From the NCBI GenBank assembly GCA_000002445.1, contig AL929603.2:64001-128000 (forward strand): a DNA stretch of 64,000 nucleotides, in the 5' to 3' direction. The translations under genes and the position numbers were made by a program. Shown piece after piece: positions 26,391-63,735 of this stretch. Under the pieces are notes generated by a model that did not search any database, had not been told where the DNA came from, and saw only the letters and a list, made by a program, of their open reading frames with translations. Every line of letters starts with the position of its first letter. Position 1 is the first letter of the stretch. The stretch comes from Trypanosoma brucei. Its lineage: Eukaryota.

Positions 26391-27364
26391 TTCCACATAT
26401 AATATTCCTCAATATCGTTCACAAAATAAAAATAATTTCATTTCCTTCTGTATTCAGTTTCTTGTGCAGCAGTGTGTACTAATCATCCATAAAGTTTTTA
26501 ATTTGCCAAATACATCATTACGAAACTATTTTCCACAAATAAACAAACAAATAAACAACCAAACATTTTTAAATGTTGTTGTGAAACGGAAATTGAATCA
26601 CGGAAAATTGTGGGGCGCACACGTAATGGGCACCATGAATGCCTCTTTGGATATTCCTCTATGGATTTTCACCAGCATCATCAACTTACTTTTTGTGTAA
26701 AAAAAAACAAAAAAGAAATAAAGGTACAAATGCATTAATAAACCCAACTCCTCAGCAGGAAATCAAGAACAGGAAGCCACGAAAAGCGTATGGCATATAT
26801 GATTTTCACCTCTCAGTTACTTGAGGTGGATCGCATGATTTACCCACCTTCTAAGAACACACCCTCCGAGAGGCCCGATTAAAAGAAAAAAAAACGCTAT
26901 GACGGTTGAAAAGACGTTTTTCATAAACCTTCACTTTATACGTGAGGATGCATGAATAAACAATGATAACGATGAGAATGCTAACGGAAACAATGACGAA
27001 CCGTGAGGATCCTAGAAAAAAAAATAAAATAAAATCATCACGTACCTTCACAGTAGGGAAACTTAATAAATAACAAAATATAAATATTCCCTACACAGAG
27101 GTATAGGGAGTGTTCGTCAACTTCGTAATGCTAATCAAAAAGTCTTCAAATGTATCGATCATTCGTGTAGTCAATCAAATAAGAAGTAACATGTACTACA
27201 CGCACAAAAGCACACTTACAAAGCCTACAAACCCACTTGCCCCCTTTTAGAGAATACCACTCTCTAGTCAGTGATAGGAGAGGTGATATTAAAAGTATTC
27301 CCTTTATAATTATTTCTGACTCCTCAATTCGTTGCAACATAACATAACATGCAAAGATGTTGCA
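26391..27364. repeat. C-type segment copy 2.
   Basis: Matches 10441..11423. Confidence 0.75.
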
Positions 27365-28785: not shown

Positions 28786-28797
28786 TTTGGAGCAGAA
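28786..28797. repeat. Target-site duplication, 3' copy, of ingi-1 (plus strand tttggagcagaa; element sense TTCTGCTCCAAA).
   Basis: Immediately follows the element poly(A), which is a plus-strand T10 at 28798..28807. It is a 12/12 match to 34052..34063. Confidence 0.85.
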
Positions 28798-29069
28798 TTT
28801 TTTTTTTGAATTTTCTTCGTGCCTTCGTGAGAGTTTCTCCCAACTGGCGCGGCCATCAGCCATCACCGTAGAGCCCTGAGATGCTATCGGTCTGGCGACT
28901 GTGGCAGAGTCTCCCTTTTTTATTCATCCTAACACACCCTCTATAATTTTTGTTGTAGCTCCGCATATGAACGGAATACAGTAGATGGGGCGAGAAGCCC
29001 CCCTCACCCCGGACTCTCCCAAAGATGTCAATTAGCAATCCTTTTGTTTTGATTTTTGTTATTCGTTTA

Positions 29070-32000: not shown

Positions 32001-34051
32001 CTTGAATCTCACTCTGCCAGTTCGGTTACTCAGAAATGATACGCACCACTTCACAATGTGGGGTGATACCTTCATTCTGTGCATTTCCCTCGCAATTTTG
32101 TCGTGGTCTACTGTATCAAATGCCTTCTCGTAGTCAACGAATACAGCACCCGTACGATATTGGTGCGTGGGACGGCAGAGGGCAGCGCGGACGTGCAGGA
32201 GTTGTTCGAGCGTTGAGCATCCGGGGCGAAAGCCTGATTGCTGCGGCGTCAGCTGGGACTCAACAGTGTCTCTAAGTCTCGCGGCAATTATGCGCTCCAT
32301 GACTTTGCAGAGACAGCTCGTGAGCGTCACAGGCCTGTAAGAATCGAGGTCCTCCGCCTTTTTTCCGGCCTTCAGGATGGGGATGATAACACCAGTCTTC
32401 CATGCAGGCGGCACGACTCCCGTTCGTAGGCTCTCATTGAATAGCCTCAGAACAACATTCAGCGCTGTTCTGCCGAGATGTTGCAGTGCCTCGTTGTATA
32501 AGCAATCAGGTCCGGCTGCGGATCCACTCGGTAGCAGTTTGATCGATCTCCGTAGTTCAGCCATCGTGATGGGACTGAACTCACTCGCTATCGTCTTTAT
32601 TGGTGCCGGTGGGTGTGAGTCGGGGTGCCTTCTTGCGCGGGACGAGTACAGTTTACTGAACCTCTCAGCTTGACGGTAGTCCGTGATGGCCGCGTTATCT
32701 ACAAGTACAGCCGGTGTGGTTAGTGGTCGTGGCGCATATACCTTCTTGACAATGTGCCAACTGCAGCGGTCTGACACCGCAAGTCTGGAGCATAGCGTGC
32801 TCCATCTCTTCTTTGTGGTACGGTCCAGGATCTGCTTACGCGTGGCTACCAACTTTTCCCTTCGGTGGGAGGGTCCGCATCCAGCGATCTCTTCATCGAG
32901 TTTCGCGAGCTCAGGTGTCCAATGTGGTGGCGTTGCTCTGCAGCCACGGGGGACGGAGACCTTCGTCGCAATGCGGATGGCGGAGCTCAATTTCTGTTCC
33001 AGGGTGTTGACGTTCTTCTCTCTACCAATTTTCCTGCAGAGCTCGTCAACCTTGAGACGGAAATTCCTCCAGTTAGCTTTTAGCCATGCGTACATGGGCT
33101 TTTGAAGCCGCGGGCAACTCAGTGCATCTGTGTCGTCTCCAACGATAACGTCGAAAAATATGTGATGGTGATCGCTATCGGGAGAATACAGCGATGTCCA
33201 CGTGTACACTGTGCAATTCCTTGACAGTGTCACATCAGGGGTGGACTCCCCGTGGTGGCGCGCGTACCTGGTGCACTCACCAGTGTTGCAGACCAGAAAC
33301 TGGTTGTCAATGCACCACTGTGTGAGGGTTTCACCCTTGGTATTTGGTGGGCTCGCGCGATCCCATGCCAACGCGTGTGCGTTAGCGTCTGCACCGATGA
33401 GCTGGGCACCGTCAGTCGTCAGAAGCGTATCTAGGTCAGTTGCCGTGAAGGTGTGTTTTGGTGGGATGTATGCCGACGTGACAGTCAGCGCCGTTCCACG
33501 TGCAAGGTGAATTGTTGCATGCACTTGTTCAATGCGACCAATAACGGCCATACCGGTCTCGACTGGTAGGTCCTCCCTCACTAGTATTGATACACCACCT
33601 CCTTTGCAGTTACGAGCTATTCCGTGATGTTGGTAGCCAGCAACGCTAAAGCAAGCCGCCTCTCCAGGCGTCATCCTTGTCTCGCTCAACAGACAAAAGG
33701 CGATCCGCTCATCAACAAGGGTTTTGTGGAGTGCTAATCTCTTTCCTTGAGATAGCCCGGCGCAGTTCCACTGCATCCCGCGCAACGACGGGCCGGGATT
33801 CTCTTCCACATCACCGGACAGCAGCATCTTAGTGCGGATGATACTGCTGATGGCACGCTGGCACGTGCCCAGGGACCGACAAATGAAAGACGGTGTCCCA
33901 GCAAGACGCTGCTGATCCCTGTGCTGTATGATGCCGTAGCCGGAGCACAGCAGTGTTCCCCATGAAAGGAACGCTGCTGGCTCTTGGCTTCCCCCGATGA
34001 TACGGGGTACTGGACCCTGGCACCACGTTGAGGTGGCCGGCATCGCCAGGG
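29070..34051 (-). CDS. ingi polyprotein ORF of about 1660 codons with no stop or frameshift. Domains in protein order: leader with 2A-like motif; APE-type endonuclease (about 33132..33776); reverse transcriptase (about 31752..32534, FADD motif); RNase H (about 30582..30989, HYELWTDGS...); five C2H2 zinc fingers (about 29442..30227). The stop codon is at 29070..29072.
   Basis: This is the ingi-derived portion of the 2003-aa ORF 29070..35081. Domain motifs were read from the translation: MQWNCAGLSQ...FFDVIVGDD for the endonuclease; PQGTVLGPIMF...GFFADDLTLL for the RT; CTECDATYQCRSSAVTHMVNKHG and CPTCGRQCASKTGLTLHQKKMHG for the fingers. It is in frame with the upstream RHS codons. The element's own first ATG is at nt 9..11. 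Confidence 0.8.
33789..33812 (-). other. 2A-like co-translational 'self-cleaving' motif DVEENPGP, in the context IIRTKMLLSGDVEENPGP|SLRGMQWNCAG. It lies about 80 codons into ingi-1, upstream of the endonuclease domain.
   Basis: Codons 424 to 431 of the 2003-aa ORF; plus strand cgggccgggattctcttccacatc. It matches the D(V/I)ExNPG|P consensus of viral 2A and of 2A-like sequences reported in trypanosomatid L1Tc/ingi elements. Confidence 0.85.
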
Positions 34052-34063
34052 TTTGGAGCAGAA
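34052..34063. repeat. Target-site duplication, 5' copy, of ingi-1 (tttggagcagaa).
   Basis: These are the last 12 nt of the RHS 5' part (codons F-L-L-Q plus A) abutting the ingi 5' end at 34051. Confidence 0.85.
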
Positions 34064-35081
34064 ACGAGCCAACACCAAATGATTTCCCAATACCTGGAGT
34101 GCCAACGAGGACGCAAGGTATCTTTTTTTTATTCACGCCTGGCCCTAACCACAAATCCAGCCTCTGCTTCACAAGATACCACACTCTCATTACCTCTCGA
34201 CGAATGTACACATCCCGGTCAAACACGTAGTCTCCTGGTTCCTCCGCACCCTCTTGAATTACACTTCGCGGAATACGGAAACGGTTAAACGGCCAACCCT
34301 TCTGCGAGGTGAGCACAGCAATCTCTAAATTACCGTGACGAGGCAGTGGGTCGCACAAGTCATAAGGCGTGTGACTGACATTCACCTCCTCTTCTGTCCA
34401 CAACTCGGGCTCGCCGTCACTATTACCCACAACCTTCATGCCAAGAGGTAAATCATTGTGGCCCGATTCCACATAACCCCACGTCGCATTGTATACGGAT
34501 TCATATACTCCTTTCAGTTCGACACCATCAGCTGTTTGGTGAGCTCGTTTCCTTGCTTCTTTGGCGGCCGCCAACGCTCCATCCAACATTCCCCTCGCCA
34601 CGGGACCAACAAATTCCCTTATTTCCCCTCTTCCCTTCTCCTCCCACTGCCGGAGGTAGTAAATTTCCTTCTCAGACAGATAAATAGCTGCCCTCACTGT
34701 TTTAAATTCATCAAGCCGCCGTATCCTTCCTAGAATCCCGGCATCCAAAATATAATACTCCGGGCTCTGAACAAACACATCCATTGCCACATTCTCTGTG
34801 TCATACGTATTAGAGAATTTTTTCAGCAGAAAGTCATGCAACTTCATATCCCTCAAACCCTCACAGCGTTGCAGCAATACATCTTCAATAGAACTATTCA
34901 TCGTCCAGTTGGGCCCCTCTTCAGTTCTCTGCCGTATTTGTGGAGGCTGAGCAGCAGCAGCAGCAGGAGGTGGCGGTACATTTTCATCCCGTGGCCTCCT
35001 CATGGGCCCTTCAATATTACCTGCCACTTGTTGGTTTTCATTATTTCCTTGTGGAGCTGCGGGACTATTTGCTCTTGACAT

Positions 35082-37119
35082 AACTCTCCTAATATTATTA
35101 ACTTAACTTCCTTTCCTTTTCTTTTTTCTCTGAAATTATAAATAACTGAAGTAAAGTAACATATGAGGAAAATAATAGCGGGTGAACAGTGTAACATAAT
35201 ATCAAAAGTGATCAAGCATGCTAATGTTTATTCACTATCATTTGTATAATATGATATCAAAATGTATTTGGTATTGAGAAGAGCAATTTCAAAATATAGC
35301 AGCTGTAAATAAATATTTCCCTTGCTTCATTATCATGTGCTAAATATAATGAACTTCATACACCATTTCTTTTTTAAACCATATATAATATGGAAACGAA
35401 AAATATTACTGCCTCATACACCTGCATCAACACTTCGTATATATAATCAACATTTACAAAAAGTCAAATTCTATTGATTAAAATCAAGTAAAACAATAAA
35501 CAATAAAAATATATGGATATTAATGAAACGAAGAAAAAGATTATCGGAACAACACATAGATACATACACACATGAATACGCACTACACAATTGCTTCTTT
35601 GTATATCCTCCCCATTTTTACAATTCATAATATTCACTTGCATTGAATAAACTCATTGAAAATATAAATCACCTATCCCCTCCCCCGTGTATTCACTTAC
35701 TTCCAAAGGAGAATATTAAATAATGTCTGTAGGACAGGTAAAAAAAAACTGATAGTCTTTTTGCATCAGATAACCAGTGAGTATTTCTGTTTACTTTCAT
35801 AATAAATAAAAACATCATTTTGCCTTCAGTTAAAATAAAATTTAATTACTTGCCTCCTCACTGTTCACAACTGTCAACAACTAATTCAGCCCCACACATT
35901 CATATGAATCTGATGTGCCATCATTGTTTGATGAATTCACACACCTTTTATGATAGCGATGATACAACACATTGTAAAAAATTGGAATAAAATTAATACA
36001 ATTAATTGAGGAACCCATGAAAGACTATCATAACATTTTTAAAATTTACCTCCTTTCATTTACACAAATTAAATATGTAATGAGACAATTCCCTTTCAGT
36101 ACCTGTCCACACTTATTGTATCATCATTGTAAGTTTCCTATTGCTCACATACACGAAGCTATTGGAGTAACAAAAAATAAAACAACACATCTAAACAACT
36201 TGAAACTATATATAATAAATAAATAAAGGTAATAGAGAGAATGAGCGTGAACTGACAGATAATAAAATGAAACACGTCTCGCACTTTCCTTATAAATATT
36301 CAATAGTTGGTATGTTACAAATAAAAACAATTACACATTATAGAAAGGAAGGGATATAATTACATTATACACCTGTATGTGGATATGTAACAGTGAGTCA
36401 TAGTAGAAATAAATTGCCTAAACACAATAGTTATGGAAGATAAAATAATTCAAAATATCAATAATATTATTCTATCAACATTCCCTTCCTTCTCCATTAA
36501 GTTTTCAATGGTTTCAAATAATAATTCACATAATCCCATACATGTGTTACGATGGGTATTGCATGCAGTACCATCTAAAGGAAGTGCAACTCATATAACA
36601 TTTTCAAAAAAAGGTATTGAATGGTTGTTTGCTACCATCAATTACATTTCCAATGCCTAATTACACTTTTATATGCATGAAGGAAGTTACTGATGATAAC
36701 TTTGACATGCTCGAGAATTCATAACACAAAGCAGCAGCTGCATGCAATAAAAAATAAAAATATAAATAACATCCGAATTCATTTACCGACAGATGAGTGC
36801 AATTCATTCACCCAAACTTCATAGCTGTAAACATAAACTCGCTGCTTCCAATAGGAAATAATCCCGCATAAATATTGAGTATCTGAAAATGATAGCAACG
36901 GGTTTCCATTTTTGAAATATATGCATAAAATACATGAGGTATATGAAGCCATATTGGTAAAGTGTCACTACGCATGTTGCAATTTACTATCAGAAGTGTC
37001 TGCCTTATTTTATTTCTTGTGTTACTGTAACTCATGAGTATCATTCATTATTCTTTACAATACAACTGTAAGTCATTTTGCATTTTTACATATTTTCTTA
37101 TTCTCTCATACTGGAAGTA
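35082..37119. repeat. B-type segment copy 4 (5' flank of RHS2b).
   Basis: Same start sequence and body as the other B copies. It is the most diverged of the four. Confidence 0.75.
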
Positions 37120-38078
37120 TTCCACATATAAGATTCCTCAATATCGTTCACAAAATAAAAATAATTTCATTTCCTTCTGCATTCAGTTTCTCGTGTAGCA
37201 GTGTGTACTAATCATCCATAAAGTCTTTAATTTGCCAAATACATCATTACGAAACTATTTTCCACAAACAAATAAACAAACAAATCATTGGGACAATATC
37301 TTTGAGGAATTTCCTTCACTATATTTGCAGTTCAGTAGTAATTAAAATACACTTTTCTGTATAATTCAACACATGGTGGAATTGCAAAGAAATGTGATGG
37401 TACTTATAATCAATAAGTTCCCAATTTTCCTCATACGGTCTCTTTTCATGCCTTTACATCCTTATATAATTCACAGAGAATTACTGCAATTTCTTTCATA
37501 TGCTTTCAGGATTCCATAAGTCACAATACAAATAATATATATATATATTTGCTTCTACATAATTTGGACATAATATTGCTTAACATATAAATTATCACAA
37601 ACCTATGATATTACACTCCTCCTAAGAATAATAGAATCAAATTATTTCTATTTTGCATCATTACATGAAGCTTTGGAAAAGGAAAAAAAAGAATCAAACA
37701 AAAGGTAATGTAAAGAACACAGTTTTTTAATACAGATTATAACTTGTTTGTGAATTTCAGATGCAAACACAATATGTTCAAACAGGGAAACAGTAAAGGA
37801 TGTTACTGGTGATGTAAGCACAAATTAACCAAAAATAGAAACATAAATAAAATTGAAACTTATAAAAACACAAATATATATGATACAAATATTTACCATA
37901 TATTATAATTCGCCACCCTCACACTTGAATTACAAAGAGTGCATAACACGCATATGTGGTAAAGCTAATACAACTCGAATATACGTATGCGCCATCTCCT
38001 TAACATAATCATTCTAATATTTAGTATGTATGTCTGTGTGTGTGTAGAAATGATGAAATGTAATCGACAGTCCCTTGA
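37120..38078. repeat. A-type segment copy 3, partial: first approximately 0.95 kb only. Homology ends after gaaatgatgaaatgtaat.
   Basis: Collinear with 1..900 and 15931..16850, then diverges into unique sequence at about 38079. Confidence 0.7.
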
Positions 38079-41000
38079 CTCGGAATGCGGTATTAACGTG
38101 TCTCAGATTTTAAGCATTCTTGTTCTACAAGGGAAGTCATTCGCCTTTTTTTTCCTTTTTGCGCAAACAAAAAATAAAAAGAAGAATACAGGGGTTGTAG
38201 CGGATAACTAGCTTTTTGAATCGTAGGAATATATTATGAAGCATCTACTAAGGCACAATCGTCGTTATTTCACTTTCAACACTTCTTCTGACTCTATCTA
38301 CTTTTATCCATGTTTATAAATGATACTTTTTTTTGTGAAAGTTATAACAAGAAACTAACTCGTATTTTTACTCACCGTCTTCCTTATTTCTATATTTCGC
38401 AATTGTACCATGGCAAAATATCATTCTTGTTTCCTATTTCATTGAGCAGTTATGCTTGCAGAAGAAAACAGGATGAAAATAATCAAGACCTCACCAACAG
38501 GGTCCAGACATCCTTCAAAAAAGAACGAACAAAGAAGTTAACAACGCAACCCTTCCCACAAATGAGCGTCTGTCACTGTGCAAGAAAAAACAATGGCTCT
38601 TCAACTGCACACAACACGAGAAACGATATCAGCGGCTTCAATCCCACAGTTAAAGTCACTTGACGAAACACTCCGCATATGAGACCTTTGCAAAGCAATG
38701 TATTTGCTATTAAAAAAGAAAACGCATTCCTTCACGTGCCGTTTCAACAAACTGCTAGCCAAGAACTAAGAGTATCAACACACACAGGTGATATCTACGC
38801 GTCGAATATTTGCTGCCCAGCTGACTCCAAACTCACAAAGAGGAAACAACACGTAACCACTTACAGCCCAGCTGCTAGTGTCCTTTAAGTACATACAAAT
38901 ACACAACAGCAATCATTGTCACACCACTAACTTTAGGTATCATTTAATGCGTATTTAACAAACATGATGCCCGACTCCAAATGTGAAAGGCACTTGTCAC
39001 GCACCCGCCCCGCCCCCCTCCCCACCAATTCCACAGAATGGTGGAAACAGAGCGGCAAAGGAGGAGCGGCGCGGCACTGTTAAAATAGAGCAGCTGCGCA
39101 TCAGTTGCATTGATTTTGTGGAATGCAGAGAAACCACCAGTTGAGTTTAGAGTAAAGGATGCCTCCCATAGAGCCGTGACGGCAGAATATGATGTAGACG
39201 TCGCGATTCTTTTTTTTTGTTTTGCTGCAACCTCCCGAAATGCGTTGAAACGCCAAGCGCTACCGTCACCCCCAGAGCAAAAACGTTGGGGAGAAAAAGC
39301 GGAACAATGCGTGGGTTGTGGCGCTGAAACCACAATTACCAACTGGCAAGGTGGATGGACCGCGACAGGTGAGCGGGCAAGGGGAGGTATCGCGATATGT
39401 TTGTGAAATGTGGGGAAATGTAAGAAAAGAGACCACTAAATATGATAACGATGTCAGAGCAACGAATATGAATGGCGTACAATTCCGTTCAGAAACACTG
39501 TCTGGAAACTCTGTCCGTAAAACAACAACCGGCAGCACCGACGAATTCGTAACAGAAGGTTGCGGGATGCCAGCCAAAAAAAAAACCATCAATAGGCCAC
39601 AACCACACCGAATCAGAAAGTCCATGTAAAAGTAACCAAATACACGCAGCTCAAACGCTCGAATGTTGGATACGCGGCAGGTGACACGACGGAAGGAATA
39701 TTATCCGGCGCTTGGAAGCATGTCACCACCGCAACGAATCCTCAGAAACTGGACAACTTCAAGTGTGGAGTGGCGGCTTGCATATGAACGCAGTTAATGT
39801 CAGAAAAGGGGTGAAAGGCACAGCGGGAGGAATGGCGGAGTAAAAAAGGCAGGGAGGCGGTGCCAAGACTCCCGAGCAGCCATCCGCTAAAACCTACGGC
39901 ATATGACATGTGTGTTATGGCCATCGCAGCGCAGGAGGAACTGTTGCAACAGATCAGACATGACTGTTATGGGCCCGTCACTGCCTTCAGAGGCTTTTCC
40001 AAACGAAAGGAAAGAGCGCAATGAAACAGAGTGATGCTGACGTGTGCAGAAGTCTGAAGGCATTATATCAGCGAGGTCTGTGGTGACTAAAAGCCTGAGT
40101 TGGATGCATGGTTGGAAGGGTGGTGGATCCTGCGAATAGTTGAAAGTAGGGTGCCTGTACTTTATTTCTCATATACTCGCGTGCTCCGTATACAAAATAT
40201 AAATGCGAAATGGAGCTAACAAACGCGCCAGCAAAGTGACTCTGTTCCTTTACAATGTCCAGACAATTCTTACTAAGACTCTTAAAGCTACTGGACCGAA
40301 GGAACCTCACGACCATGTGCAGCCGGCAAACGTACGAAAATGAGGAGCTGGCCGGCATCCCACCCTCTACTTGATAGCTGCTCTCAACTGGAATATCGGG
40401 GATTATGGATGGTGCAGAAAGCTCACCATTTCGTAGATTCTCCTGAATAGCAATGGAGTCTGAAGGTTAACCCAAAGAATTAAACTGTTGAACAGACCTG
40501 GTGACCCACATAGTCTTTTTTTGTGTGAAGAGTGTCGGACTGCCTTACTGCATCCCTTCGCGTGCATGCAAACTGAGCACAACGCAATGTCTCCTTTATT
40601 ATTTGAAGCATGAAAGCTCATGGATCATAGCCATGTGACAGAACGCCTTGATTACGTTAGACTGATAGGACCGCTGTGTATTTTTATCGTTTATGTTGGG
40701 ATGTGCATTTGATAGTAGCATCTGTTAATGTACAATTATTTTGATGGATTTGGCACATTACAGTGATTTCTTTTGAGAGTTTCTCTTCCCCCTCACTCTG
40801 AGTAGATGTGGGGTAACTGGTTACCTTTCTGACGTTAACATGGTTTGCCAGCTCTGTTTGGAAATGTTACGGTTTCCTCATAGACAGTTTCGAAAATTGT
40901 CCGTAAAGCTGTTTTGAATCCATGTTGCGGTTGTCACGAATCAGAAAAATTATAACGAAGACGGGTCTGCAACAAGTGATTGTGAGTAAGCGGCAATACT

Positions 41001-43974
41001 GCGTATCAAGTAATGTCACATCATGATGATTACAGTGCTGCTTCACAACTTCAGCATAGGGGAATGGCGGAATCGTTTCAAATGCGGAACAAATAATGAG
41101 AGTTCAATTCTTCCTTATTAAATTCCCGTGGCCGCATAAACTGTATGCAGGTGAAACATTTATCAAGGAAACTGTATTTACGAGACTTAATTCAAGGAGA
41201 GATTAGGAATGCAGATACTTCATGCTTTCACTGAACAGCCGTACATCAGACCTGTCAACTCCATTAAGTGACTGAGGAGTTAACCCATTGTAAGGTGTAT
41301 GAACATGGAGACATGGTTTGAGCAACCAACAACCAGTATTCAGTATAGTTGGCTTATGTGAAACCAAAACATCTGCATTCGTGTATGTTCAACCTGACAG
41401 CTTCGCTTACCCTTTTGTTAAGCTATAAGACACTCTTCCAGGTGTATGCAACAAAATACAGTTATGCGCGTGATCTTGCGAGTGAGGATGATAGTCTACA
41501 GGAAACATGCGAAACAGGAAAAATATATATTGAGCTGATCTGAATCCATTTGATGCAGAATGTAAGAGCACAACCCAGCTGATATTTTCGTATTAACCAA
41601 CACACTAAAGAATGATTTAAGAAGCAGGAAAAAGTTGATCCAAACAGCACTTAGCCTGGAGTTGTTTCCAATGCTCCTAGATAATAATGTGTATGATGCG
41701 TATGGGGGTTCATTACTTTTTGAGGGAGTATGAAAAAACGATGATGGGCAGAAACTGTTCGGAAGATGACAATCTTTACCATTCTTATTATTAGGTTGAC
41801 ATCCATTTTGTGATGGTTTAATGGTTTAGTATGTATGAGTGCTTTATGCTCGCTTTATTTGAACACAAACTCATGCATGCGCGAAAATTGTGAAGCTGCA
41901 TACCCACAGATATCAATTAAGGGCATCAAACTTTTGGTGTAAAGCAGTCATTTTCATATGAAGTTAGCATTCCGAAACAGTTACTTGGGAAAGGAAATTG
42001 AAGGTCCACCACCCTTACCAACATGCATTTTATCTGTATTTGTTGTCAAAACGGAGGTCACATATAGTCGCTGCGTAATATATTCCCTTACTTATACTCA
42101 TTAATATCCACTGACGCCTCTCTTTTCTCTCTTCGTGTGCGGGAGGCACTGCCGTCATACAGAGAGAATCGCAACATTGGATAAGAGAATGGATCTCGAG
42201 TGTGTTAGAAGGCAGTCAGAGACGATAGCAGTTGTGACGGTTGTGGTGTTCCGGGTGAATTTGGATTTGATTAATGATGAACCGCTTCGTGTAGCGGTAA
42301 GAGACCCTGATGAAACTGCATGTAAAGAAACTGGAGGAAGGGTTCACAATGGTCATAAACACGTCTTATGGATGTGATAATGTATGAAGTGAAAGTGTGG
42401 AAACAAGGTTGAGAGAAATCATGTGTGAGACTGTATTGGCCAATTTTTACAAAATGGGGATGAATTCTCTCCGTGTATGAATGCTGCGTTGGAGAGTGCA
42501 AATGATGCGTTACATGTACAAGCTGGAGAGGATGGCGACTGACGTCTGAAATTGGAATGGATGTAAAAGGCATAAAGCATTGTACCGATGCGAAAGCAAA
42601 GGGCGCATGCATGTCAACGATAGGAAACTAGTTTAGACTCTTTTTGTTCGGATATGCTTTGGCGGAAACAGTGTGCATGCAGGACCCCCGAGCATCCGAC
42701 AAAGGGATATAGAAGCGTTAACGATAGTCTCCAACTCATGGAAATCCGGCGGACATCAACTCCTCTCAATTATAAGTTACTTCGAGCTTATCAATTTCTT
42801 CCTTATGAGGTCCCATTTCCTCCACACACTTTTGCATCACAACAATGGAGAGAAGGAGAAAATGTTGAAGCGCATTATGCACTGTATCAAACTTGTTTGT
42901 GTATGTATTTGGTCTCTTCTGATATGAGTCTAACCGTTACCAACATGTTACCGGCTCTAGGAATCCATGAGCATGATGTACATAAAGTATCACGAACTTT
43001 GTGCGCGGCCCGATGTTCCACTTAGTGAGCGTCATCAAACTCAATGAGCAGAACCACATGAAAGGAGGAAATTGTGTATTTGTATGCATACATGTGTGTC
43101 AATATGTTGGTTTGTAACACTGTGGTGAGAGTAAATGGAAGTATCTTTTAATATGGAGAACACCACACATAAACACACCTCAGTGTATCGCCAAGAAATA
43201 ATGGCGGAAACGGGTCAGACAATGTTGCAAAGATATCAGTCTCAAATATATACATATGACAGTAGCCATTCTCTGGTCACACAACAAGGAAGAGCAAGGT
43301 GTAGCGTTGATTGGATGTAACGGCAGGATGAATCATTTCCTTTAGAGGACAAATGAGCAGATGCGCGTGTGCAGTCCGAACCGGCTAACTGTGAATTGCA
43401 TTTCATTGAGAAATATTTTGTTAATTCAGCAGGAAGAACGCCTTCTTTTTTCACTCTCATTTTACGCAGACATGACGGTCGATAGAGGTTTGTACCAGCT
43501 GATGCATTTACAACCGTGCACAGTGATAAATGTTAACTGATTATTCCTGTCATGTGACTCTCGAGACGTTACCAGGTGACCATGGAATTATCTTAAAGAT
43601 GTTTGGATAGAAGGGCGTCTGATAGGTGCCGGTCTTCTAATACGGCGAAAAGCTTGTAATGCATGCGTATGTTTGGTAAGATGCGAGGAAGCCATTGATT
43701 GTACTGTTGTAGTTAGCTGTTGCGCGCCGGATTGACTGGGTGTGGTTGTAGCACATCTCAGTAATGAAGTGCAGAAACCTCTCATCCATCGCAGTGATCG
43801 GCAAATATGTCTTAATTAAGTTGAATGGCAGGTGGTGTCTATGCATATGCTGGGTTGCTCGACTGCCAGAAACATGGATTAAAGCAGCAAAAGGTGTTGT
43901 CGTTTGTTTTTATCCATGCATTTGTTCAAACTATCTGTGCATCAATGAGAACTATCATTGTCTTTCAGTACAAC

Positions 43975-44027
43975 CAACCTTTCTATACCATCACTAACAA
44001 CTCTCCTCTTCCATCCATCATTGCTAG
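43975..44027 (+). promoter_or_regulatory. Polypyrimidine tract plus AG upstream of the adenylate cyclase ATG; a putative trans-splice acceptor.
   Basis: ctttctataccatcactaacaactctcctcttccatccatcattgctag lies 45 to 95 nt upstream of the ATG at 44072. Kinetoplastid mRNAs are trans-spliced downstream of poly-Y tracts. This is inference only. Confidence 0.3.
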
Positions 44028-44071
44028 ACAAGATAACTTTCTCGATTAATTTCATTCATGATCGCACGCGT

Positions 44072-46958
44072 ATGCCGGCTGACGAAGCACAGCAAGCTCC
44101 ACCACCTCTCCCAATTACCTTTACGACACCAACACTTTTCCTGTTGCTGTTAGTGTTACTTCAACTTTATCAAATATGTGTTCTTGTTAACGCAGATGAC
44201 AGTAGGAAAGTTACGGTGAAGGCAATATCTCTGTTATACAGTCGAAAATGGGACCTACAAGTTATCAATGCCGTGAATGCCGGTTTCAATGCCTCCCTGG
44301 TTGCTCGGAACTGGACGGTGGCACCCGGGGTGAATGTTGAAGTTGCCCGCTCCCCCTCATACGGCATCGATTCGGTCCAGTTTCTGAATGATTACTTGAA
44401 GCCACTAAATGGCGATGACGCGAACAAGCTGTGCAATACATTAGAAGGGAACCAACTTGTTGGATTCGGTCCCATAACTGAGTGTCGATGGGGCATGAGG
44501 GATGTCTGCCGCATTTTTACTTCCTGCTCCTTGAGGCCACTGGCGAACTTATTACCCCAGTACGTTATGCAGTGAGTCACTTACATGTGCTAAAGCAGGG
44601 TTTCATGTATCTTGATGGGCTCCCGGGAGGTAGTGAGGCATATAATCAGGCAGTGGATTTCATATAGCGCATGGGGTACAGTTTCTGTTGTGTTTTCACG
44701 GGGGAAGACAAAGCGGGTGGCCAAGGTGGATCACCTGAGGAATTCGACGCCGTATGGGATGAGTTTGCTGGGGGAAATCCACAGGCTGTGATTATGTTTG
44801 CCGCCATGAAGCCTGATGCCAAAAAAATATCTCGTGAGGTTGGTGTCTGATCCGCGTACGGAAGATACGTTCGTGCTAACTCCGATCTTCTTGCAGAAAT
44901 CAATTGTGAGCATCTGGAAGGAGACATTGGAGGAAGCGAATGTTCCGTTTGTTCCCCATCGTGTGATTCAGACGGGGTCAAATCCTCTCACTAAGGAAGA
45001 TTATATCGACGCGGTAAAACGCTTTCAGACTGAAATGAGGAACTACTTGACTGAATACAAGGAGTGGAGTGGCTTCAATGATGCAGATCACTTTCTAAAG
45101 AGTGACGCGCACGGGGAGCTGACGATTAATGGCTGGATTACTGGAGAGGTGTTGGCGCGGGCACTGCGTAGCCATGGCTGGATGAAAAATCGCACAGCCT
45201 TCATTGAGTCGCCGTTACGTGGTTGATGGCATAGTGATCGGTGATTTTGGAGGTGAGTGCGATAGCTTTACCACTGCAAATGATGCCACTTGCCGCTGCA
45301 ACCGTGGCAGGAAGGACGTCTACATGAGGGAGATTGCTGAGAATTACCGCCTGCAGCCGCTTGTTGGCAGGCATATTATGACAACTTCCCTACAGTGTTA
45401 TATCGATCCCTCATTCCTATAGATACCACTCACCGGCCTCACCGTTGATATGGAAGATCACGAGGAGCTTCTGAGATGTTCCACACAGTTTGAAACTGGT
45501 GTGTCCACCACGACCTCATCTGGGAAAGCTGGCGAGATGAACAGTTTCTTCCTTCAGAAGGTTGTTACGGATATGCAGAAGGTTTCCGACGAGCTCAACA
45601 CATTACGACGGGAAAGGATAGTCGCTGCTGTGTTCGGCATCGTGACAAAAGCGGTGCTCGGTCTGACATTCATTGACCCTATGACACCAATCCCCCATCT
45701 GAACAGTTTCAGCAGGAATGTGATCCACTTGTCCCCAACAATGGAGCAGCAGCTATGCATGTTAGCGAGCTCCCTCTCCAGCATTCGTGCTGACTTCCAC
45801 CAATCGCGTTGTAAGGGGCGGTGAGGCGTCCGCTTTCATTGATGTGCTAAGAAAGACACTGCTCACATTTGGCTTGAACCTCAGCTCTACCGTTGTGTTG
45901 ACTGCAGGGGACTCTGTTGGAGAGTATCTTTCGAAAAGTGGTAGCACTTTTATCATTGGACTTGCTGTTGATGGCATTGTGGTAACTGAAGAGCATCTAC
46001 GTACTCGCAACAAGGTGCGCGTATTTGTCCAGTTCTCTGGCATTGCGCTGCTGTAAAATGAGTTTGTGCAAGCCTTCAACAGTAGCGACGGCGCCAAGCA
46101 CCTTTTGTTCGCAACAAGTTTGCTTTGCTAGCCAGACATCAACACGACATCGTAGACTGTGCAACGGTTCCACGAGGCGGTACGTGAGGTGGAAAAGTGG
46201 ACGCCGCTGTCGGTGCTGGGTTTCGCCACGGGTAGACTAATACAAGAGAATCTGCAAAACATGGAAAGGGTAACGTCCGGCCTGCTGCTCGATTTTTTCT
46301 TCAACCAAACAGTAATCACCATTGATGACATGCATTATATGGGCCGTACAAACATTATGATTGCATAATCAACGTTGTTGTTGCCGCTGATGACTGCGTG
46401 ACAAACTTCGGTGCTACGGATATAAGTCTGTGTGTGTGTGTGTGATCAATGGCACGTGCGCTACGGTCAGATGCACCAACACTACAGAATGCGATGTCGC
46501 CGTCGTTGATGTGCGCTGTCCCCAACGGTAATGCCCTCAACCCCTCACAACTTGCTGGTGTGGTTGATGACTCTTTATTCGTTGTGGCTCTCGCAATATG
46601 TCTAAGCTTACTTGCGTCATTCCCTCTCCGTGGCACCCGTGATAACGACAGCGCGCCGAAGGAGCCAACGGACCCTGTGACACTAATATTTACTGACATT
46701 GAGAGCAGGACTGTGTTGTGGGCTGCACACCCTGACCTGACGCCTGATGCCGTTGCAACACATCACCGTCTGATTCGTTCACTGATTGGGAGGTATGACT
46801 GCTACGAGGTGAAAACTGTTGGTGATTTGTTCACAATAGCGAGCAAGAGTCCCTTCGCTGCCGTCCACCTCGCACAGGAACTACAGCTGTGTTTCTTGCA
46901 TCATTCCTTCCGAAGGGGCTGCACAATTTCTGACAGCGCCGAATGGACAAATGCATAA
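44072..46958 (+). pseudogene. GRESAG4: Receptor-type adenylate cyclase (GRESAG4/ESAG4-like) pseudogene. Retains the signal peptide, the extracellular domain (with at least 4 frameshifts), the transmembrane helix and the first approximately 100 aa of the cyclase catalytic domain. Truncated after ...LQLCFLHH.
   Basis: The N-terminus MPADEAQQAPPPLPITFTTPTLFLLLLVLLQLYQICVLVNA is a signal peptide. Later pieces are read in shifting frames across ORFs 43958..44575, 44816..45226, 45450..45824, 45787..46056 and 46159..46368. ORF 46449..46958 carries a hydrophobic helix (LFVVALAICLSLLASFPL) followed by VTLIFTDIESRTVLWAAHPDLTPDAVATHHRLIRSLIGRYDCYEVKTVGDLFTIASKSPFAAVHLAQELQLCFLHH. This is the characteristic N-terminal half of the trypanosome class-III cyclase domain. 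It then diverges (SFRRGCTISDSAEWTNA*) and stops. Confidence 0.75.
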
Positions 46959-49022
46959 TATTACTGAGCGCTGCTTACGCACGCAGCTTATATAATGTCA
47001 CATGCGTTGTGATTTGTAGAGGGGAGTGGGCCACCAGAAATTAGGTCATTTTAATGTCAATAAGTTTTTACCGCTTGTTGGAGCCGTCATTCCCCGCACT
47101 TAACCTTTTCGAACCGAGGAGTTGGTAAAAGACGGCCAATCAACGGTATCGTCGACACCATGGCCATCAGTACGGGATTTTACATACGGTAACGAAGCGT
47201 GGGCATATGTTTTTCTTTAAACGTCATTTTTATTTTATTTTTCTGTACATTGTTGCTGTCACTTCTATGAAGTATAGCCAGAATGTCAGAGTAGTGCATT
47301 TGTGTGCAAAACAAAGAAAATAATACTCCCTTTGTTTTTCTCTCCCTCTTGGGTTGTATGAAAAGAGGGGGCTCCTGTTTGTAGGATGACAAGAGCTGTT
47401 TTGTTTCTTTCCTCAAAAAAAATTACATGCTCCATAGTTGCTCCAATATTCCCATCCCTTCATTGGAAAATGACCCGACGGCTCCGTCCATGTGAGTGAA
47501 GCGGTGTCCCTGATATTTGCCCTGATGCTTTTTCTTTTTTCCACCGTGGAACCTGCACTGCACTGCACTTGCGTTCCCTCATCCCCTCTTACAGTTATCC
47601 GTTTCACTTCCCCTGTTGAGGAATGCGTATTTCCAACCGTGCGAGATATCAAACAGTAAATCTGTCGGACAAACAAAAGGCTGAGAAATTCTTCACATAA
47701 ACTTATGAGCTTCCACCACTGAGGCACGCACGCTCACCAACACCAACAAAGTCAAGCAAAAGTCGCTGCATATTAATACTCAATGGCGCCATAATGTTCC
47801 CTTTTCCTTTTTCCTTCCGTTGGGGTTACACAACACTTGTGGGAACCCGCTTCACTTCGTCCTTTTCCAATTATGAAGGTAACTGTGTTTTGTTTGCCAC
47901 ACTTCCGCTTGTTATTTCTCCAACTGGTTTCACTTTCAGAAGTCGCGTGTACACCACTTGTGGAGGAAATATTACATTAAGCAAAACCAACAACGAAAAA
48001 AATGGCAATACATTCTAAAACATTCCCTCAACATTGCAGAACTCATGAAAGGAACCATGGTTACTGCCACCAGGCTAAGCAAAGACCAAAAGGCTTTTGA
48101 AATGTGTTTTCGAATCGAATGTACCACTGGTATTTCTTTAACATGCAAACACAACACAAATCACTGCATACACAAACACGAGTGCCAAGCTTCTTATAGA
48201 GATATTTCAATACCTGAAAAAGGGACCGGGACGCAAAGTTTGGGAATGGAATTTCCCCACCCGTAACGGTGATTATCTAAGACGCTCAATCAACACATTT
48301 CCGCCTGTCCACAGTTAATCGGAAACCGTAGTGCCCATATGTCTCCCTAATTACTGTTGTCCCTTCAGTTTTCACAGTAGATGTTTCAATTGGTTTCTGC
48401 GGCCGAGGTAAATAAAGCTTATGTGTCATATCCGGGAGGTGTTTCCATGTGTCTTCGCTTTCCGTTTTGTCACTGCGTTTGGGCTCACGCAATGACATTA
48501 ATTGAAATTTCAGGCCACTACCATATATGGGTGGCTCGTGGAGAGAGTGAGGATTGGGATTATTCTAACAGCTTTGTGGTTGTGTGTGTCGTGCTTTTGG
48601 AAAATATTGCAACCAATGAAAGGGAAGGCAAGTGTCACCTTACTTTCCATGCTGCGACATCAATGCATAAGAATTATATGCTAGTTGCTCTGCGAGGGAA
48701 GGCCGTGAAGGCGAAGGTTAGCTTCCGGTTTAAGGAAGTGTAGAGACTTCCTGATACTACTGTCAGAAACTACTGTTGCTGCGTGCTTCAGGCACTGGGT
48801 CAGTAATTCATAAATACAACAACGAGAATAAAATTAATCCCTTGTGGCTGCTAAGCGTGTAAGCAACTGAGAATAATAAACAGTATATTTTTGCCACACT
48901 TTATTGATTTCTTTATATATACAAAAAACCTCATTACATTTATCATTTCTTTTGTGCCCAAAGACTGCTGAATGAAGGTTAGGATTACTGACCATAACAC
49001 ATTTTGGCATGCACCTCAATTA

Positions 49023-49055
49023 CTTCCTTATAACACTTCCCCCCCTCGTTTGATT
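49023..49055 (+). promoter_or_regulatory. Polypyrimidine tract upstream of the LRR gene ATG; a putative trans-splice signal.
   Basis: cttccttataacacttccccccctcgtttgattc followed by AG dinucleotides at 49062 to 49090. The ATG is at 49137. This is inference only. Confidence 0.3.
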
Positions 49056-49136
49056 CATCGCTTAGCTCTATTATTAAAAAAGAAAAAGCATTTCCTCAAC
49101 ACTCAGCACCTCAAGGAATCGGAAACGGGAACTACA

Positions 49137-52100
49137 ATGTCAGGAAACCAAGGAAGAAAGCGACAGCGCAGCTCATCACCTGAGCAGTCAGAAGCTTTAA
49201 AGGAACCATCAACTACTGAACAAAATAAACTCACCACCGTTACAATCACCGAAGAGACGCGTGACGCCGGTAATGATGAAACTGTGATATCATTACTGAA
49301 TGAGCATGAGAAATTGATTAAACAAACGACACGGCTGGAAAGCAGTGTGAAGGCACTTAAATGTTTCATGAGTAATCTCACAGCTATGAGTGGCGAAAGG
49401 CAAGGTGGTGTGTGTGATGACACCGAATGCATACATAGAGTAACATTATATAATGCTGCTGATAATGCCTTCAGTGACGAAGGACTATATGAAGGTGCTC
49501 TTTCCTCACTCTGTGGCCGTATTCAAGCTAAGAAATTAACCATCACGTTATCAAAGGGTTGGAAATTTAACTCACGACAAGTCAGTAAGCTAAAGCAGTT
49601 AGAAGAGTTACGCATTGAATATCCGCGTGGAAAACTTGTGAATATGATATCTTTGAAGAGACTGCAAATGTTGAAAAGGCTTTGTCTCAGGAGCAACAAT
49701 ATTGACAACAATGACGGTCGTCACTTATTCAATATTGGAACATTGGAGGAGTTGGCTATTACTGATACCATGCAACTGACAAATATCAGAGGAATCTCTC
49801 GCTTGACTAACCTGAAGTGTCTTGAGTTAAATTCCACAAATATTGACGACAGCTGTGTGGAGGAAATAAGTGCATGTGCTAAACTGTCCAAACTGTGTAT
49901 ATCTAAATGCAACAATATCACAGACGCGACACCAATTTCACAACTTGCAGCGCTGGAAGAGTTGAATCTAAGCAATTGCCACATAACGAAGGGAATAGGA
50001 ACACTTGGCATGTTGTTGCGACTGCGTATGCTTGACTTGAGTGGTGTTCCTGTGGAAGATAATTGTCTGAAGGATTTGTGTGACTGTGGGTCTCTTGAAA
50101 GGCTGAACATTTCTTATCGTATTCAGCTGACAGATATCAATCCACTCTCCAATGCCACTGCTATTGAGGAATTGAACCTTAACGGTTGTCGCCGAATAAC
50201 ACGGGGGATAGGCGTTGTGTGGGCATTACCAAAGCTCCGTGTATTGCACATGAAGGATGTGCACCTGAGCGAGCCATCTCTCGATTCAGTTGGGACTGGT
50301 GGACCACTTGTAAAGGTCAGTCTTGATAACTGCGCAGGCTTTGGTGATATGACACTCTTATCCAGCATTGTTACACTCGAGGAGCTGAATATTCAAAAAT
50401 GTGCTGACATCATTAGTGGTGTGGGTTGCCTTGGTACACTGCCATACCTGCGTGTGCTTAACATAAAGGAGGCACACATCTCGTCCCTTGACTTTACTGG
50501 TATTGGTGCCTCAAAATCCCTTTTACAGCTCAATATGGAGAGTATCACGGGACTGAGTAATGTGGAAGCACTCGCCAACATTTTGACTCTGGAAAAACTA
50601 AGCCTTCACGGCTGCACGGGTATTGACGCAGGAATTGGATGTCTTGGAAACCTGCCACAGCTTAAAATGTTGGACCTGTCTGGCACAAATACCGACAATG
50701 AGTCTCTCAGAAGTTTATGCCTATCGCAGACAGTGGTGTCCCTCAACCTTTCCCATTGTTGGAAAATGACAAATGTGTCCCATATTTCAAGCCTCGAAGC
50801 ATTGAATGAACTGAATCTGAGCAACTGTTTTGGAATAAATGCAGGATGGGAAGCACTTGAAAAACTTCAGCAGCTACATGTGGCAATCCTCTCGAATACA
50901 CATATTACTGATAGAGACATATCCCATTTCAGCAACTGCAAAAACCTTATTACGCTTGATCTTTCTTTCTGCAATAAGTTACTTGATGTTACAGCTCTCT
51001 CTAACATCACTACGCTTGAGGAGTTGAATCTTGATAGTTGTTCAAACATCAGAAAAGGGCTGAGCGTTCTTGGAGAGTTGCCACGGCTTTGTGTGTTGAA
51101 CATAAAGGGTGTACAGTTGGAAGACTCAGTTATTGTTTCACTAGGGAATGGTAACTCATTTGTAAGGCTCAGTCTTGAGAACTGCAAAGGGTTTGGTGAT
51201 GTCGCGCCCCTCTCGAACCTTGTTACACTTGAGGAACTGAATCTCCACTACTGTGACAAAGTAACCTCTGGAATGGGAACACTGGGCAGGCTACCGCAGC
51301 TTCGTGTACTGGATTTGGGACGGACACAAGTTGATGATAATTCCCTTGAGAATATCTGCACATGCTCAAGCCCACTTGTATCATTAAATCTTTCGAATTG
51401 CAAGAAAATAACATCTATTTCTGCAATAGCTTCCCTTACAGCATTGGAGGAACTCAACATTGACAACTGCTGTAATGTAACATCCGGCTGGAATGTATTT
51501 GGTACACTTCACCAACTGCGTGTAGCCACACTGTCGAATACACGCACTAATGATGAAAACGTACGGCACGTTAGCGAGTGCAAGTCTTTGAATACACTCA
51601 ACCTTGCGTTTTGCAAAGATATAACAGACGTCACAGCACTTTCTAAAATTACCATGCTTGAGGAGTTGAACCTTGATTGTTGCCATAACATCAGAAAAGG
51701 TATTGAAACTCTTGGAACGCTTCCCAAGGCACGTATCCTAAGCATGAAGGAATGTTACATGGGAGACGGATATGCGCAACAATGTTCCATCCTTGGGAAT
51801 AGTAAGTCACTTGTGAAACTGAATCTTGAGAGGTCAAGAGGGCGCATATCTGTGAAAGCTCTGTCTAACGTTGCGACGTTGGAGGAATTGGTACTCGATC
51901 ATGCACGGAAAGTATGTTGTATACCGTCATTTTCCTGTCTACCGCGCCTTCGAGTACTGAATCTGAAATATACGGATATCAATGGTGATGTAACTAAAAA
52001 TATTTCCGAATCAAAATCGCTGCGATCACTCAACTTATCACATTGCAAATGGGTAACTGATATATCAGTATTATCTTCCTTATTGACACTGGAGGAGCTG

Positions 52101-63723: not shown

Positions 63724-63735
63724 TTCTCCTTCACA
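63724..63735. repeat. Target-site duplication, 3' copy, of ingi-2 (ttctccttcaca).
   Basis: Immediately follows the A11 run at 63713..63723. Confidence 0.85.

What the first reader, a model, noticed from the sequence alone, without database searches (positions are those of the whole stretch)
38079..44071. A 6-kb unique, GC-richer, ORF-poor interval where coding polarity flips from minus (RHS array) to plus (cyclase, LRRP). A candidate divergent strand-switch or transcription-start region, or a graveyard of decayed genes.
What the sequence shows:
- There is no repeat homology to the A, B or C segments.
- No ORF exceeds about 130 aa on either strand.
- There are G/C-rich patches, for example cacccgccccgcccccctccccacc at about 39004.
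- All confidently called genes to the left are on the minus strand, and all to the right are on the plus strand.

Established knowledge: in trypanosomes, divergent strand-switch regions host Pol II initiation and carry specialised chromatin.

Inference: this interval may be a transcription start region for both flanking arrays. Alternatively it may contain unrecognised pseudogene debris, since I could not match its ORFs to any family.
Basis: inference. Interest (0 to 1): 0.5.

Follow-up and report, generated by a model that had tools for sequence, protein, structure and literature searches.

The report
Divergent strand-switch spacer, T. brucei chromosome 1
This stretch is the already annotated gap on Trypanosoma brucei chromosome 1 where two gene arrays point away from each other; published RNA mapping narrows the turning point to about 2.5 kb, and the rest is ordinary transcribed spacer and duplicated DNA.

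Summary
The window is T. brucei TREU927 chromosome 1, positions 64001-128000. The LRRP is 100% identical to XP_846398.1, and published splice sites fall on AG dinucleotides at a fixed offset of 64000.

- No similarity to the rest of the window.
- No Pfam domain in any of the six frames.
- ORF lengths close to chance.
- One non-random C-run at 38996-39034.
- Minus-strand genes on the left and plus-strand genes on the right.

Published spliced-leader mapping (Kolev 2010) places minus-strand acceptor sites at 38154, 39259 and 39342. Plus-strand sites lie at 41896, 41910, 42147, 42181 and 44028. The switch therefore lies in a 2.55-kb core without processing sites, 39343-41895. The window-wide cumulative GC-skew minimum (39034) and keto-skew minimum (40510) agree with this.

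The interval is not one uniform promoter:
- Its left fifth is the 5' end of a minus-strand transcript with no supported ORF, Tb1.NT.7.
- Its right third is the small mRNA Tb927.1.270, which opens a multi-copy cassette of a 123-aa ORF followed by an ESAG4 pseudogene.
- Its left two-thirds recur about 92% identical (90.5% over the longer 34462-41877 match) at a second RHS/LRRP junction in T. equiperdum.

Pol II initiation in the core is inferred, not shown, and Kolev's list of Pol II units omits this region. The finding is ordinary and already annotated.

The parts
35082..38064 (-). AT-rich RHS-upstream spacer, repeated in the other RHS array units. It lies just left of the finding and forms the body of transcript Tb1.NT.7.
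   Evidence: It is 91-92% identical to 13916-16839, 8406-10611 and 24356-26555. GC is 0.293.
35233..39342 (-). Tb1.NT.7, a trans-spliced and polyadenylated minus-strand transcript with no supported ORF. It is the first processed RNA of the leftward unit.
   Evidence: Kolev 2010 Table S7 gives chr1 103342->99233, 4109 nt, 0.67 RNAs per cell. Acceptor sites lie at 102154 (11 reads), 103259 (6) and 103342 (2), which are window 38154, 39259 and 39342. CT on the plus strand at 39343-39344 (AG on the minus strand) and purine-rich plus-strand tracts upstream were read in the sequence. The transcript is absent from that paper's lists of novel transcripts with homologues or peptides.
38996..39034 (-). 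C-run on the plus strand, equivalent to a G-run on the minus strand. The minus strand carries a tight G-quadruplex-type motif, GGGGAGGGGGGCGGGGCGGG, at 39004-39023.
   Evidence: It is the only such patch in the window, with 6.5e-5 expected by chance. It is the only tight-loop G4 motif in 64 kb. The window's cumulative GC-skew minimum falls at 39034. The patch is intact in paralogue L003 but has a 12-nt deletion in orthologue L004.
39266..39589 (-). Tb927.1.250, annotated 'hypothetical protein, unlikely'.
   Evidence: Kolev Table S2 lists chr1 103589..103266 among ORFs with no detectable transcript. It has no Pfam hit.
39343..41895 (.). Core of 2.55 kb with no mapped splice-acceptor site on either strand. 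It is the strand-switch proper and the inferred zone of bidirectional Pol II initiation.
   Evidence: It is bounded by the outermost minus-strand acceptor (39342) and the outermost plus-strand acceptor (41896). The cumulative keto-skew minimum is at 40510. It has no tRNA, no Rfam family, no Pfam domain and no notable repeats. Initiation itself is inferred.
41862..41877 (+). Left copy of an imperfect direct repeat, AACACAAACTCATGCA, at the edge of the cassette.
   Evidence: The homology of paralogue L003 jumps from window 41877 to 48153. The two ends share this short repeat.
41878..48152 (+). Cassette of about 6.3 kb: Tb927.1.270 followed by the ESAG4/adenylate-cyclase pseudogene Tb927.1.275. 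It is present here and absent from the second RHS/LRRP junction in T. equiperdum.
   Evidence: The indel relative to L003 is shown. The 123-aa ORF has six relatives in its 90%-identity cluster: Tb927.2.650.900.1250, Tb927.4.120, N19B2.025 and T. equiperdum. Their gene numbers sit next to the ESAG4/GRESAG4 pseudogenes Tb927.2.660.910.1260 and Tb927.4.130, which Kolev Table S6 lists together with Tb927.1.275.
41896..43927 (+). Tb927.1.270 mRNA, the first processed RNA of the rightward unit. Its ORF is 42654-43025 (123 aa).
   Evidence: Acceptor sites lie at chr1 105896 (13 reads), 105910 (2), 106147 (87) and 106181 (1). The main poly(A) site is 107927 (34 reads). AG at 41894-41895 and a polypyrimidine tract at 42117-42135 were read. 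The ORF matches P0013, named TB927.1.270. pN/pS against T. equiperdum is 0.94. It has no Pfam hit.
42271..42573 (-). Tb927.1.260, annotated 'hypothetical protein, unlikely'. It is antisense to the Tb927.1.270 5' UTR.
   Evidence: Kolev Table S2 lists chr1 106573..106271 with no detectable transcript.
44028..46958 (+). Tb927.1.275, a frameshifted ESAG4-like receptor adenylate-cyclase pseudogene. It begins at the right edge of the finding, with its splice acceptor at 44028 and its ATG at 44072.
   Evidence: The acceptor is chr1 108028, 19 reads. ORF fragments in several frames hit Peripla_BP_A-cyclase_1, Peripla_BP_A-cyclase and Guanylate_cyc. Kolev Table S6 annotates it as an ESAG4 pseudogene.
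48152..48171 (+). Right copy of the imperfect direct repeat, AACACAAATCACTGCATACA, at the cassette edge.

Best explanation
The interval is the divergent strand-switch region between the leftward RHS array and the rightward unit (Tb927.1.270, ESAG4 pseudogene, DUF1181, LRRP). It lies in the RHS/LRRP-rich left arm of T. brucei TREU927 chromosome 1, at positions 102079-108071.

Shown: processed, spliced-leader-bearing RNA runs leftward from 39342 and rightward from 41896. Base composition changes polarity between 39.0 and 40.5 kb. No known protein or RNA family is encoded in the interval.

Inferred: RNA polymerase II starts in both directions within or at the edges of the 2.55-kb core, 39343-41895. 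This would follow the dispersed, motif-poor way described for trypanosome transcription start regions. The first downstream polypyrimidine/AG signals then produce Tb1.NT.7 on one side and Tb927.1.270 on the other.

The DNA itself is a mosaic of duplicated spacer. The left part is shared with another RHS/LRRP junction. The right part is the 5' end of a multi-copy cassette carrying an ESAG4 pseudogene.
For: Identity and coordinates:
- The LRRP is 100% identical over 1448 aa to XP_846398.1 of TREU927 chromosome 1.
- Tb927.1.280 at chr1 112381..112743 equals the DUF1181 ORF at window 48381..48743.
- With an offset of 64000, published acceptor sites land just after AG dinucleotides at 41894-41895 (plus strand) and 39343-39344 (minus strand).

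Polarity from experiment (Kolev 2010, PMC2936537):
- Minus-strand acceptors are at 35129 and 35145 (RHS) and at 38154, 39259 and 39342 (Tb1.NT.7).
- Plus-strand acceptors are at 41896, 41910, 42147, 42181, 44028 and 49083.

Polarity from sequence:
- GC skew is -0.15 over 35082-39342 and +0.10 over 39343-41895.
- The window-wide cumulative GC-skew minimum is at 39034 and the keto-skew minimum at 40510.
- Ten-mers reported as enriched on the coding strand of start regions (Wedel 2017, Dataset EV1) are minus-biased left of about 39.6 kb and plus-biased right of about 46 kb.
- The minus strand is 62.6% G+T over 38501-39000.

Non-coding nature:
- No Pfam hit in six frames, no Rfam family and no tRNA.
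- ORF lengths are near chance.
- The two annotated minus-strand ORFs are labelled 'unlikely' and have no transcript.

Established knowledge: transcription in T. brucei starts bidirectionally between divergent gene clusters, over broad GT-rich regions without defined motifs (Wedel 2017; Kolev 2010).
Against: - No direct evidence of initiation at this locus was available.
- Kolev's Table S14 of putative Pol II units, built from 5'-triphosphate RNA and histone marks, lists nothing left of Tb927.1.530 on chromosome 1. The omission may reflect poor read mapping in repeats, or a real absence of the marks.
- The plus strand between 40 and 46 kb carries almost none of the start-region 10-mers and has only weak G+T excess.
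- There is no long G-run of the kind that dominates the published list.
- The C/G patch is not conserved in the T. equiperdum orthologue.
- The whole 35-47 kb stretch is 2-23% diverged between strains per 250-bp window, so no element stands out as constrained.
- Read counts at the outermost minus-strand acceptors are low (2 and 6 reads).
Confidence: 0.72

Rival explanations
1. The strand switch is real, but there is no dedicated start region. The RHS/LRRP block would be a poorly transcribed, subtelomere-like island. The few spliced RNAs would then come from spurious low-level initiation, or from read-through and antisense transcription entering from neighbouring units.
For: The locus is missing from the published list of Pol II units. 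Abundance is low: Tb1.NT.7 is at 0.67 RNAs per cell, with 2-11 reads at its acceptor sites. The start-region sequence signature on the plus strand is weak. RHS regions are classed as 'subtelomere-related' and are poorly covered by probes and reads.
Against: The flanking genes are well expressed in the same data set. Tb927.1.240 has 299 and 176 reads at its two main acceptors and is listed at 9.8 RNAs per cell. Tb927.1.270 has 87 reads and the LRRP 122 reads. Read-through would require antisense transcription across a whole array on either side. The compositional polarity flips exactly here.
Confidence: 0.18
2. The interval is mainly a graveyard of decayed genes. Its ORF fragments would be remnants of ESAG, VSG, RHS or retroelement genes, now too degraded to recognise.
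For: There is a mild excess of stop-free stretches of at least 100 codons, 9 against 4.5 (P=0.02). The right third belongs to a duplicated cassette whose main gene is an ESAG4 pseudogene. The 123-aa ORF evolves neutrally, pN/pS 0.94. GC is 0.49 over 38.9-40.4 kb, close to the 0.43-0.50 of neighbouring genes.
Against: Pfam holds the RHS, adenylate-cyclase, LRR and reverse-transcriptase models that hit the flanks, yet no family matches in six frames at E<=1. tblastn found no similarity to the RHS, ingi, cyclase or LRRP sequences of the window. The longest ORF is within chance. This reading also does not exclude the strand-switch function.
Confidence: 0.08
3. The right-hand unit is a relic of a VSG expression site: an ESAG4-like pseudogene followed by an ESAG8-like LRRP, the same order as in bloodstream expression sites (my own recollection). 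The interval would then hold a degenerate Pol I promoter or ESAG5-side spacer.
For: The gene order is ESAG4 pseudogene followed by LRRP. The source annotation reads 'ESAG4 pseudogene'.
Against: No ESAG5, ESAG6 or ESAG7 remnant appears in six-frame Pfam scans. The cassette is an insertion relative to the other RHS/LRRP junction, so the ESAG4-LRRP adjacency is secondary. Promoter sequences were not tested.
Confidence: 0.02

Closest known systems
Divergent strand-switch regions / Pol II transcription start regions of Trypanosoma brucei (Siegel 2009; Kolev 2010; Wedel 2017)
   Same: Two gene arrays point away from each other. The core of a few kb has no known protein or RNA family and only one discounted ORF. 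The first trans-splice acceptors sit on opposite strands on either side. G-over-C skew follows the sense strand on each side, with a G-run and a GT-rich stretch on the sense strand of the leftward unit.
   Different: It sits in the repeat-rich RHS/LRRP block rather than in the housekeeping core. It is not in the published list of Pol II units. There is no run of ten or more G, and the GT signature on the rightward side is weak. Chromatin marks could not be checked.
Non-coding or small-ORF 'novel transcripts' found at the starts of polycistronic units (Kolev 2010)
   Same: Tb1.NT.7 and Tb927.1.270 are low-abundance, polyadenylated RNAs lying first in their units and without a convincing protein product.
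   Different: Both carry spliced-leader acceptor sites. The start-site transcripts stressed by Kolev were under-represented in spliced-leader libraries.
RHS/ingi/ESAG-pseudogene islands of T. brucei chromosomes (subtelomere-like repeat blocks)
   Same: It shows mosaic segmental duplications, pseudogenes, retroelement insertions and high divergence between strains.
   Different: The interval itself carries no retroelement or RHS sequence.

Membership tests
T. brucei divergent strand-switch region | Annotated or confidently called genes diverge: minus strand on the left, plus strand on the right. | tested here: met
   Pfam on flanking ORFs. Strand column of the published gene, splice-site and poly(A) tables.
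T. brucei divergent strand-switch region | Processed (trans-spliced) RNAs on opposite strands on either side, with none crossing the centre. | tested here: met
   Published acceptor sites are on the minus strand up to 39342 and on the plus strand from 41896. None is listed in 39343-41895. The data come from one procyclic data set only.
T. brucei divergent strand-switch region | Strand compositional asymmetry (G>C, and GT-rich on the sense strand) changes sign at the switch. | tested here: met
   Cumulative GC-skew minimum at 39034 and keto-skew minimum at 40510 for the whole 64-kb window.
Pol II transcription start region (TSR) | Enrichment of H2A.Z/H2B.V, H4K10ac, H3K4me3 and Pol II over several kb on each side. 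| not testable with these tools
   No ChIP-seq tracks are available here. The locus is absent from Kolev Table S14, which drew on such marks.
Pol II transcription start region (TSR) | 5'-triphosphate (primary) transcripts, sense-biased, arising in the region. | not testable with these tools
   Only the summary table was readable, and it does not list the locus.
Pol II transcription start region (TSR) | GT-rich 10-mers or long G-runs enriched on the coding strand at the 5' end of the region. | tested here: inconclusive
   Leftward side: 9 listed 10-mers on the minus strand in 38-40 kb, a G-rich patch, and 62.6% G+T over 38501-39000. Rightward side: almost no listed 10-mers in 40-46 kb. No run of ten G.
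Decayed member of a known T. brucei gene family (VSG, ESAG, RHS, ingi/DIRE, adenylate cyclase, LRRP) | Translated similarity to the family in at least one frame. | tested here: not met
   Six-frame Pfam scan at E<=1 gave no family. tblastn with the window's own RHS, ingi, cyclase and LRRP peptides gave noise only. The cyclase pseudogene starts only at 44072, the right edge.

The most novel reading that the evidence does not exclude
The RHS/LRRP junction may be a portable, duplicated bidirectional start module: the RHS-upstream spacer plus about 3.8 kb (38079-41877). It was copied together with its flanking genes, and three copies about 8-10% diverged from one another are at hand (TREU927, and T. 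equiperdum L004 and L003). If all copies fire, they form a natural mutagenesis series for asking which sequences a trypanosome Pol II start region needs. The G-quadruplex-type patch is present in two copies and truncated in one. The locus would also be a start region missing from the standard lists because of repeat masking.
Probability: 0.25. Interest if true: 0.4.

Novelty: already known. Interest (0 to 1): 0.15.

Why it matters
It matters little beyond correct annotation. The strand switch is visible in the public TREU927 annotation, and the flanking transcripts were mapped in 2010.

There are two modest points of value:
- The switch can be narrowed from 6 kb to 2.55 kb, and the interval resolved into a transcript with no supported ORF, a core and a cassette.
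- This divergent junction in a repeat block is absent from a widely used list of Pol II units. Start-region catalogues may therefore under-count such sites in RHS-rich DNA.

Tried and rejected
- **Concatenated ORF search.** I joined 41 stop-free peptides from the interval into one query for the 5.8-billion-protein search and got no hit. This was a false negative. A later search with the 123-aa ORF alone found its family at E=8e-69. One search is discarded as evidence.
- **Exact-protein look-ups.** Look-ups of the window's LRRP, the 123-aa ORF, the RHS::ingi ORF and two TREU927 LRRPs found nothing, because TREU927 gene positions are not in that index.
- **T. b. gambiense LRRP locus L001.** It is a paralogue whose homology starts only 500 bp upstream of the LRRP, so it says nothing about the interval.
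- **RNA and repeat scans.** The Rfam scan gave only a sub-threshold bacterial sRNA match, E=0.55. The tRNA scan found none. Repeat and tandem-repeat scans of the interval found only short chance-level matches.
- **Papers not held.** Three identifiers recalled from memory, meant for Hall 2003 (chromosome I sequence) and Siegel 2009 (histone marks), matched no held paper.
- **Gene-identifier search.** No paper text mentions Tb927.1.250 to Tb927.1.290.
- **Inversion between ingi copies.** I considered that the switch arose by inversion between the two inverted ingi copies. I rejected it because Pfam shows an RHS N-terminal part on one side of the left ingi, and a minus-strand ORF on the other side lies in the stretch 97% identical to the preceding RHS unit. 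That is what a simple insertion into an RHS gene would give.

Full report
**Where the window comes from.** The flanking ORFs are trypanosome-specific.
- RHS proteins (RHSP, RHS_N) lie on the minus strand, one of them fused in frame to an ingi retroelement.
- On the plus strand lie fragments of a receptor adenylate cyclase in several frames, a DUF1181 ORF, a 1448-aa leucine-rich repeat protein (LRRP) and a second ingi.
- The LRRP is 100% identical over its whole length to XP_846398.1 of T. brucei brucei TREU927 chromosome 1.
- Supplementary tables of Kolev et al. 2010 (PMC2936537) give Tb927.1.280 at chr1 112381..112743. That is the DUF1181 ORF at window 48381..48743, so window position x equals chromosome 1 (v4) position x + 64000.
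- Two checks hold to the base. The plus-strand acceptor 105896 falls right after the AG at window 41894-41895. The minus-strand acceptor 103342 falls right after a minus-strand AG (plus-strand CT at 39343-39344).

**Checking the observation.**
- The interval has no nucleotide or translated similarity to the rest of the window.
- The repeat shared with the other RHS units ends at 38064. I read the cyclase pseudogene's start codon at 44072.
- The longest start-to-stop ORF is 132 aa. The longest stop-free stretch, 163 codons, is within chance for dinucleotide-preserving shuffles (P=0.27). The number of stretches of at least 100 codons is mildly raised, 9 against 4.5 (P=0.02).
- The C-run at 38996-39034 is the only such patch in 64 kb and is far from random.
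- GC is 0.427, against 0.293 for the spacer on its left and 0.43-0.50 for neighbouring genes.

**What is encoded.** No known protein or RNA family was found.
- Six-frame translations of 38001-44100 hit no Pfam family at E<=1. The same library readily recognises the flanking genes.
- There is no tRNA, no Rfam family and no internal repeat of note.
- One search must be discounted. A concatenated-ORF query to the large protein database returned nothing, but the 123-aa ORF alone later found its family. One search was a false negative of the word index.

**What published transcript maps show.** All figures below are from Kolev et al. 2010.

Minus strand:
- The RHS pseudogene Tb927.1.240 is spliced at window 35129 and 35145.
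- The 'novel transcript' Tb1.NT.7 runs from 39342 to 35233, with acceptors at 38154 (11 reads), 39259 (6) and 39342 (2).

Plus strand:
- Tb927.1.270 is spliced at 41896 (13), 41910 (2), 42147 (87) and 42181 (1), and polyadenylated at 43927 (34).
- The ESAG4 pseudogene Tb927.1.275 is spliced at 44028 (19).
- The LRRP is spliced at 49083 (122).

The two minus-strand ORFs annotated inside the interval, Tb927.1.250 and Tb927.1.260, are labelled 'hypothetical, unlikely' and gave no transcript. Processed RNA therefore diverges from a 2.55-kb core, 39343-41895, that has no processing site on either strand.

**What the sequence adds.**
- The cumulative GC skew of the whole window reaches its minimum at 39034, the end of the C-run. 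The cumulative keto skew reaches its minimum at 40510, in the middle of the core.
- Ten-mers that Wedel et al. 2017 found enriched on the coding strand of start regions are minus-biased left of about 39.6 kb and plus-biased right of about 46 kb. They are nearly absent from 40-46 kb.
- The minus strand is 62.6% G+T over 38501-39000. It carries the only tight G-quadruplex-type motif of the window, at 39004-39023.
- These features fit the published description of broad, motif-poor, GT-rich start regions. They fit better on the leftward side than on the rightward side.

**The interval is a mosaic of duplicated DNA.** I fetched three T. equiperdum chromosome 1 loci.
- L004 and L002 are the orthologous stretch, covering window 34432-53001 and 40049-63289.
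- L003, about 35 kb to the left on the same contig, is a second RHS/LRRP junction. It matches window 34462-41877 at 90.5%, then jumps straight to 48153-58308.
- The 6.3 kb missing there (41878-48152) is bounded by an imperfect short direct repeat.
- That segment holds Tb927.1.270 and the ESAG4 pseudogene. The 123-aa ORF has six relatives in its cluster: Tb927.2.650.900.1250, Tb927.4.120, N19B2.025 and T. equiperdum.
- Their gene numbers sit next to the ESAG4/GRESAG4 pseudogenes Tb927.2.660.910.1260 and Tb927.4.130, which Kolev's Table S6 lists together with Tb927.1.275. The right third of the interval is therefore the 5' end of a multi-copy cassette.
- The ORF shows no purifying selection, pN/pS 0.94 against T. 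equiperdum.

**Conservation.**
- TREU927 and T. equiperdum are only 77-98% identical per 250 bp over 35-47 kb, but 99-100% identical from 47 kb on.
- The three copies of the left part are about equally far from one another.
- The C-run is intact in L003 but has lost 12 nt in the orthologue L004. Nothing in the core stands out as constrained.

**Interpretation.** The strand switch is real, already visible in the public annotation, and can be narrowed to 39343-41895. Bidirectional Pol II initiation there is the simplest reading. Otherwise each side would need antisense transcription across the opposite array. It remains an inference:
- No chromatin or primary-transcript data could be read for this locus.
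- Kolev's table of Pol II units begins on chromosome 1 at Tb927.1.890 -> Tb927.1.530 and omits the whole RHS/LRRP block.
- RHS-type regions are known to be poorly covered in such maps, so the omission is ambiguous.

The 'graveyard' alternative has no positive support inside 38.1-41.9 kb. The right third does belong to a pseudogene-bearing duplicated unit.

**Verdict.** This is an ordinary, already annotated feature.

Noticed in passing
window 28794-34070 (minus) and 58451-63727 (plus): Two ingi retroelement copies lie in inverted orientation. They are 97.6% identical over at least 4.1 kb, and the segment of about 24 kb between them contains the whole divergent junction. Such a pair could support inversion or double-stranded RNA formation.
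   Followed up: partly
window 1-12855 versus 15935-28797: A tandem duplication of about 16 kb of the RHS array unit, 97.5% identical. T. equiperdum seems to carry only one unit here, judged from the spacing of L003 and L002.
   Followed up: partly
window 35001-47000 versus 47001-48750 (L004): TREU927 and T. equiperdum differ by 2-23% per 250 bp across the switch region and the cyclase pseudogene. They become 99-100% identical from about 47.0 kb on. The sharp boundary suggests gene conversion among paralogous copies, or old haplotypes, rather than ordinary strain divergence.
   Followed up: partly
window 48972-49137: The LRRP ORF starts at 48972, but the main splice acceptor (122 reads) is at 49083, inside that ORF. 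The real start is probably the Met at residue 56 (49137). This matches the 1393-aa LRRP1 entry CAD21866.1.
   Followed up: partly
(method): A long query of concatenated ORFs separated by X runs returned no hit in the word-indexed protein search, even though one of its segments has an 86-100% identical family in the database. Negative results from such concatenated queries should not be trusted.
   Followed up: yes
window 41862-41877 and 48152-48171: The 6.3-kb cassette of Tb927.1.270 plus the ESAG4 pseudogene is flanked by an imperfect direct repeat of 16-20 nt, and only one copy is present at the empty site in L003. This fits either deletion or insertion through short homology.
   Followed up: partly
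window 34616-34645, minus strand: This is the only other G-quadruplex-type motif in the window. It has longer loops and lies inside the RHS N-terminal coding region.
   Followed up: no
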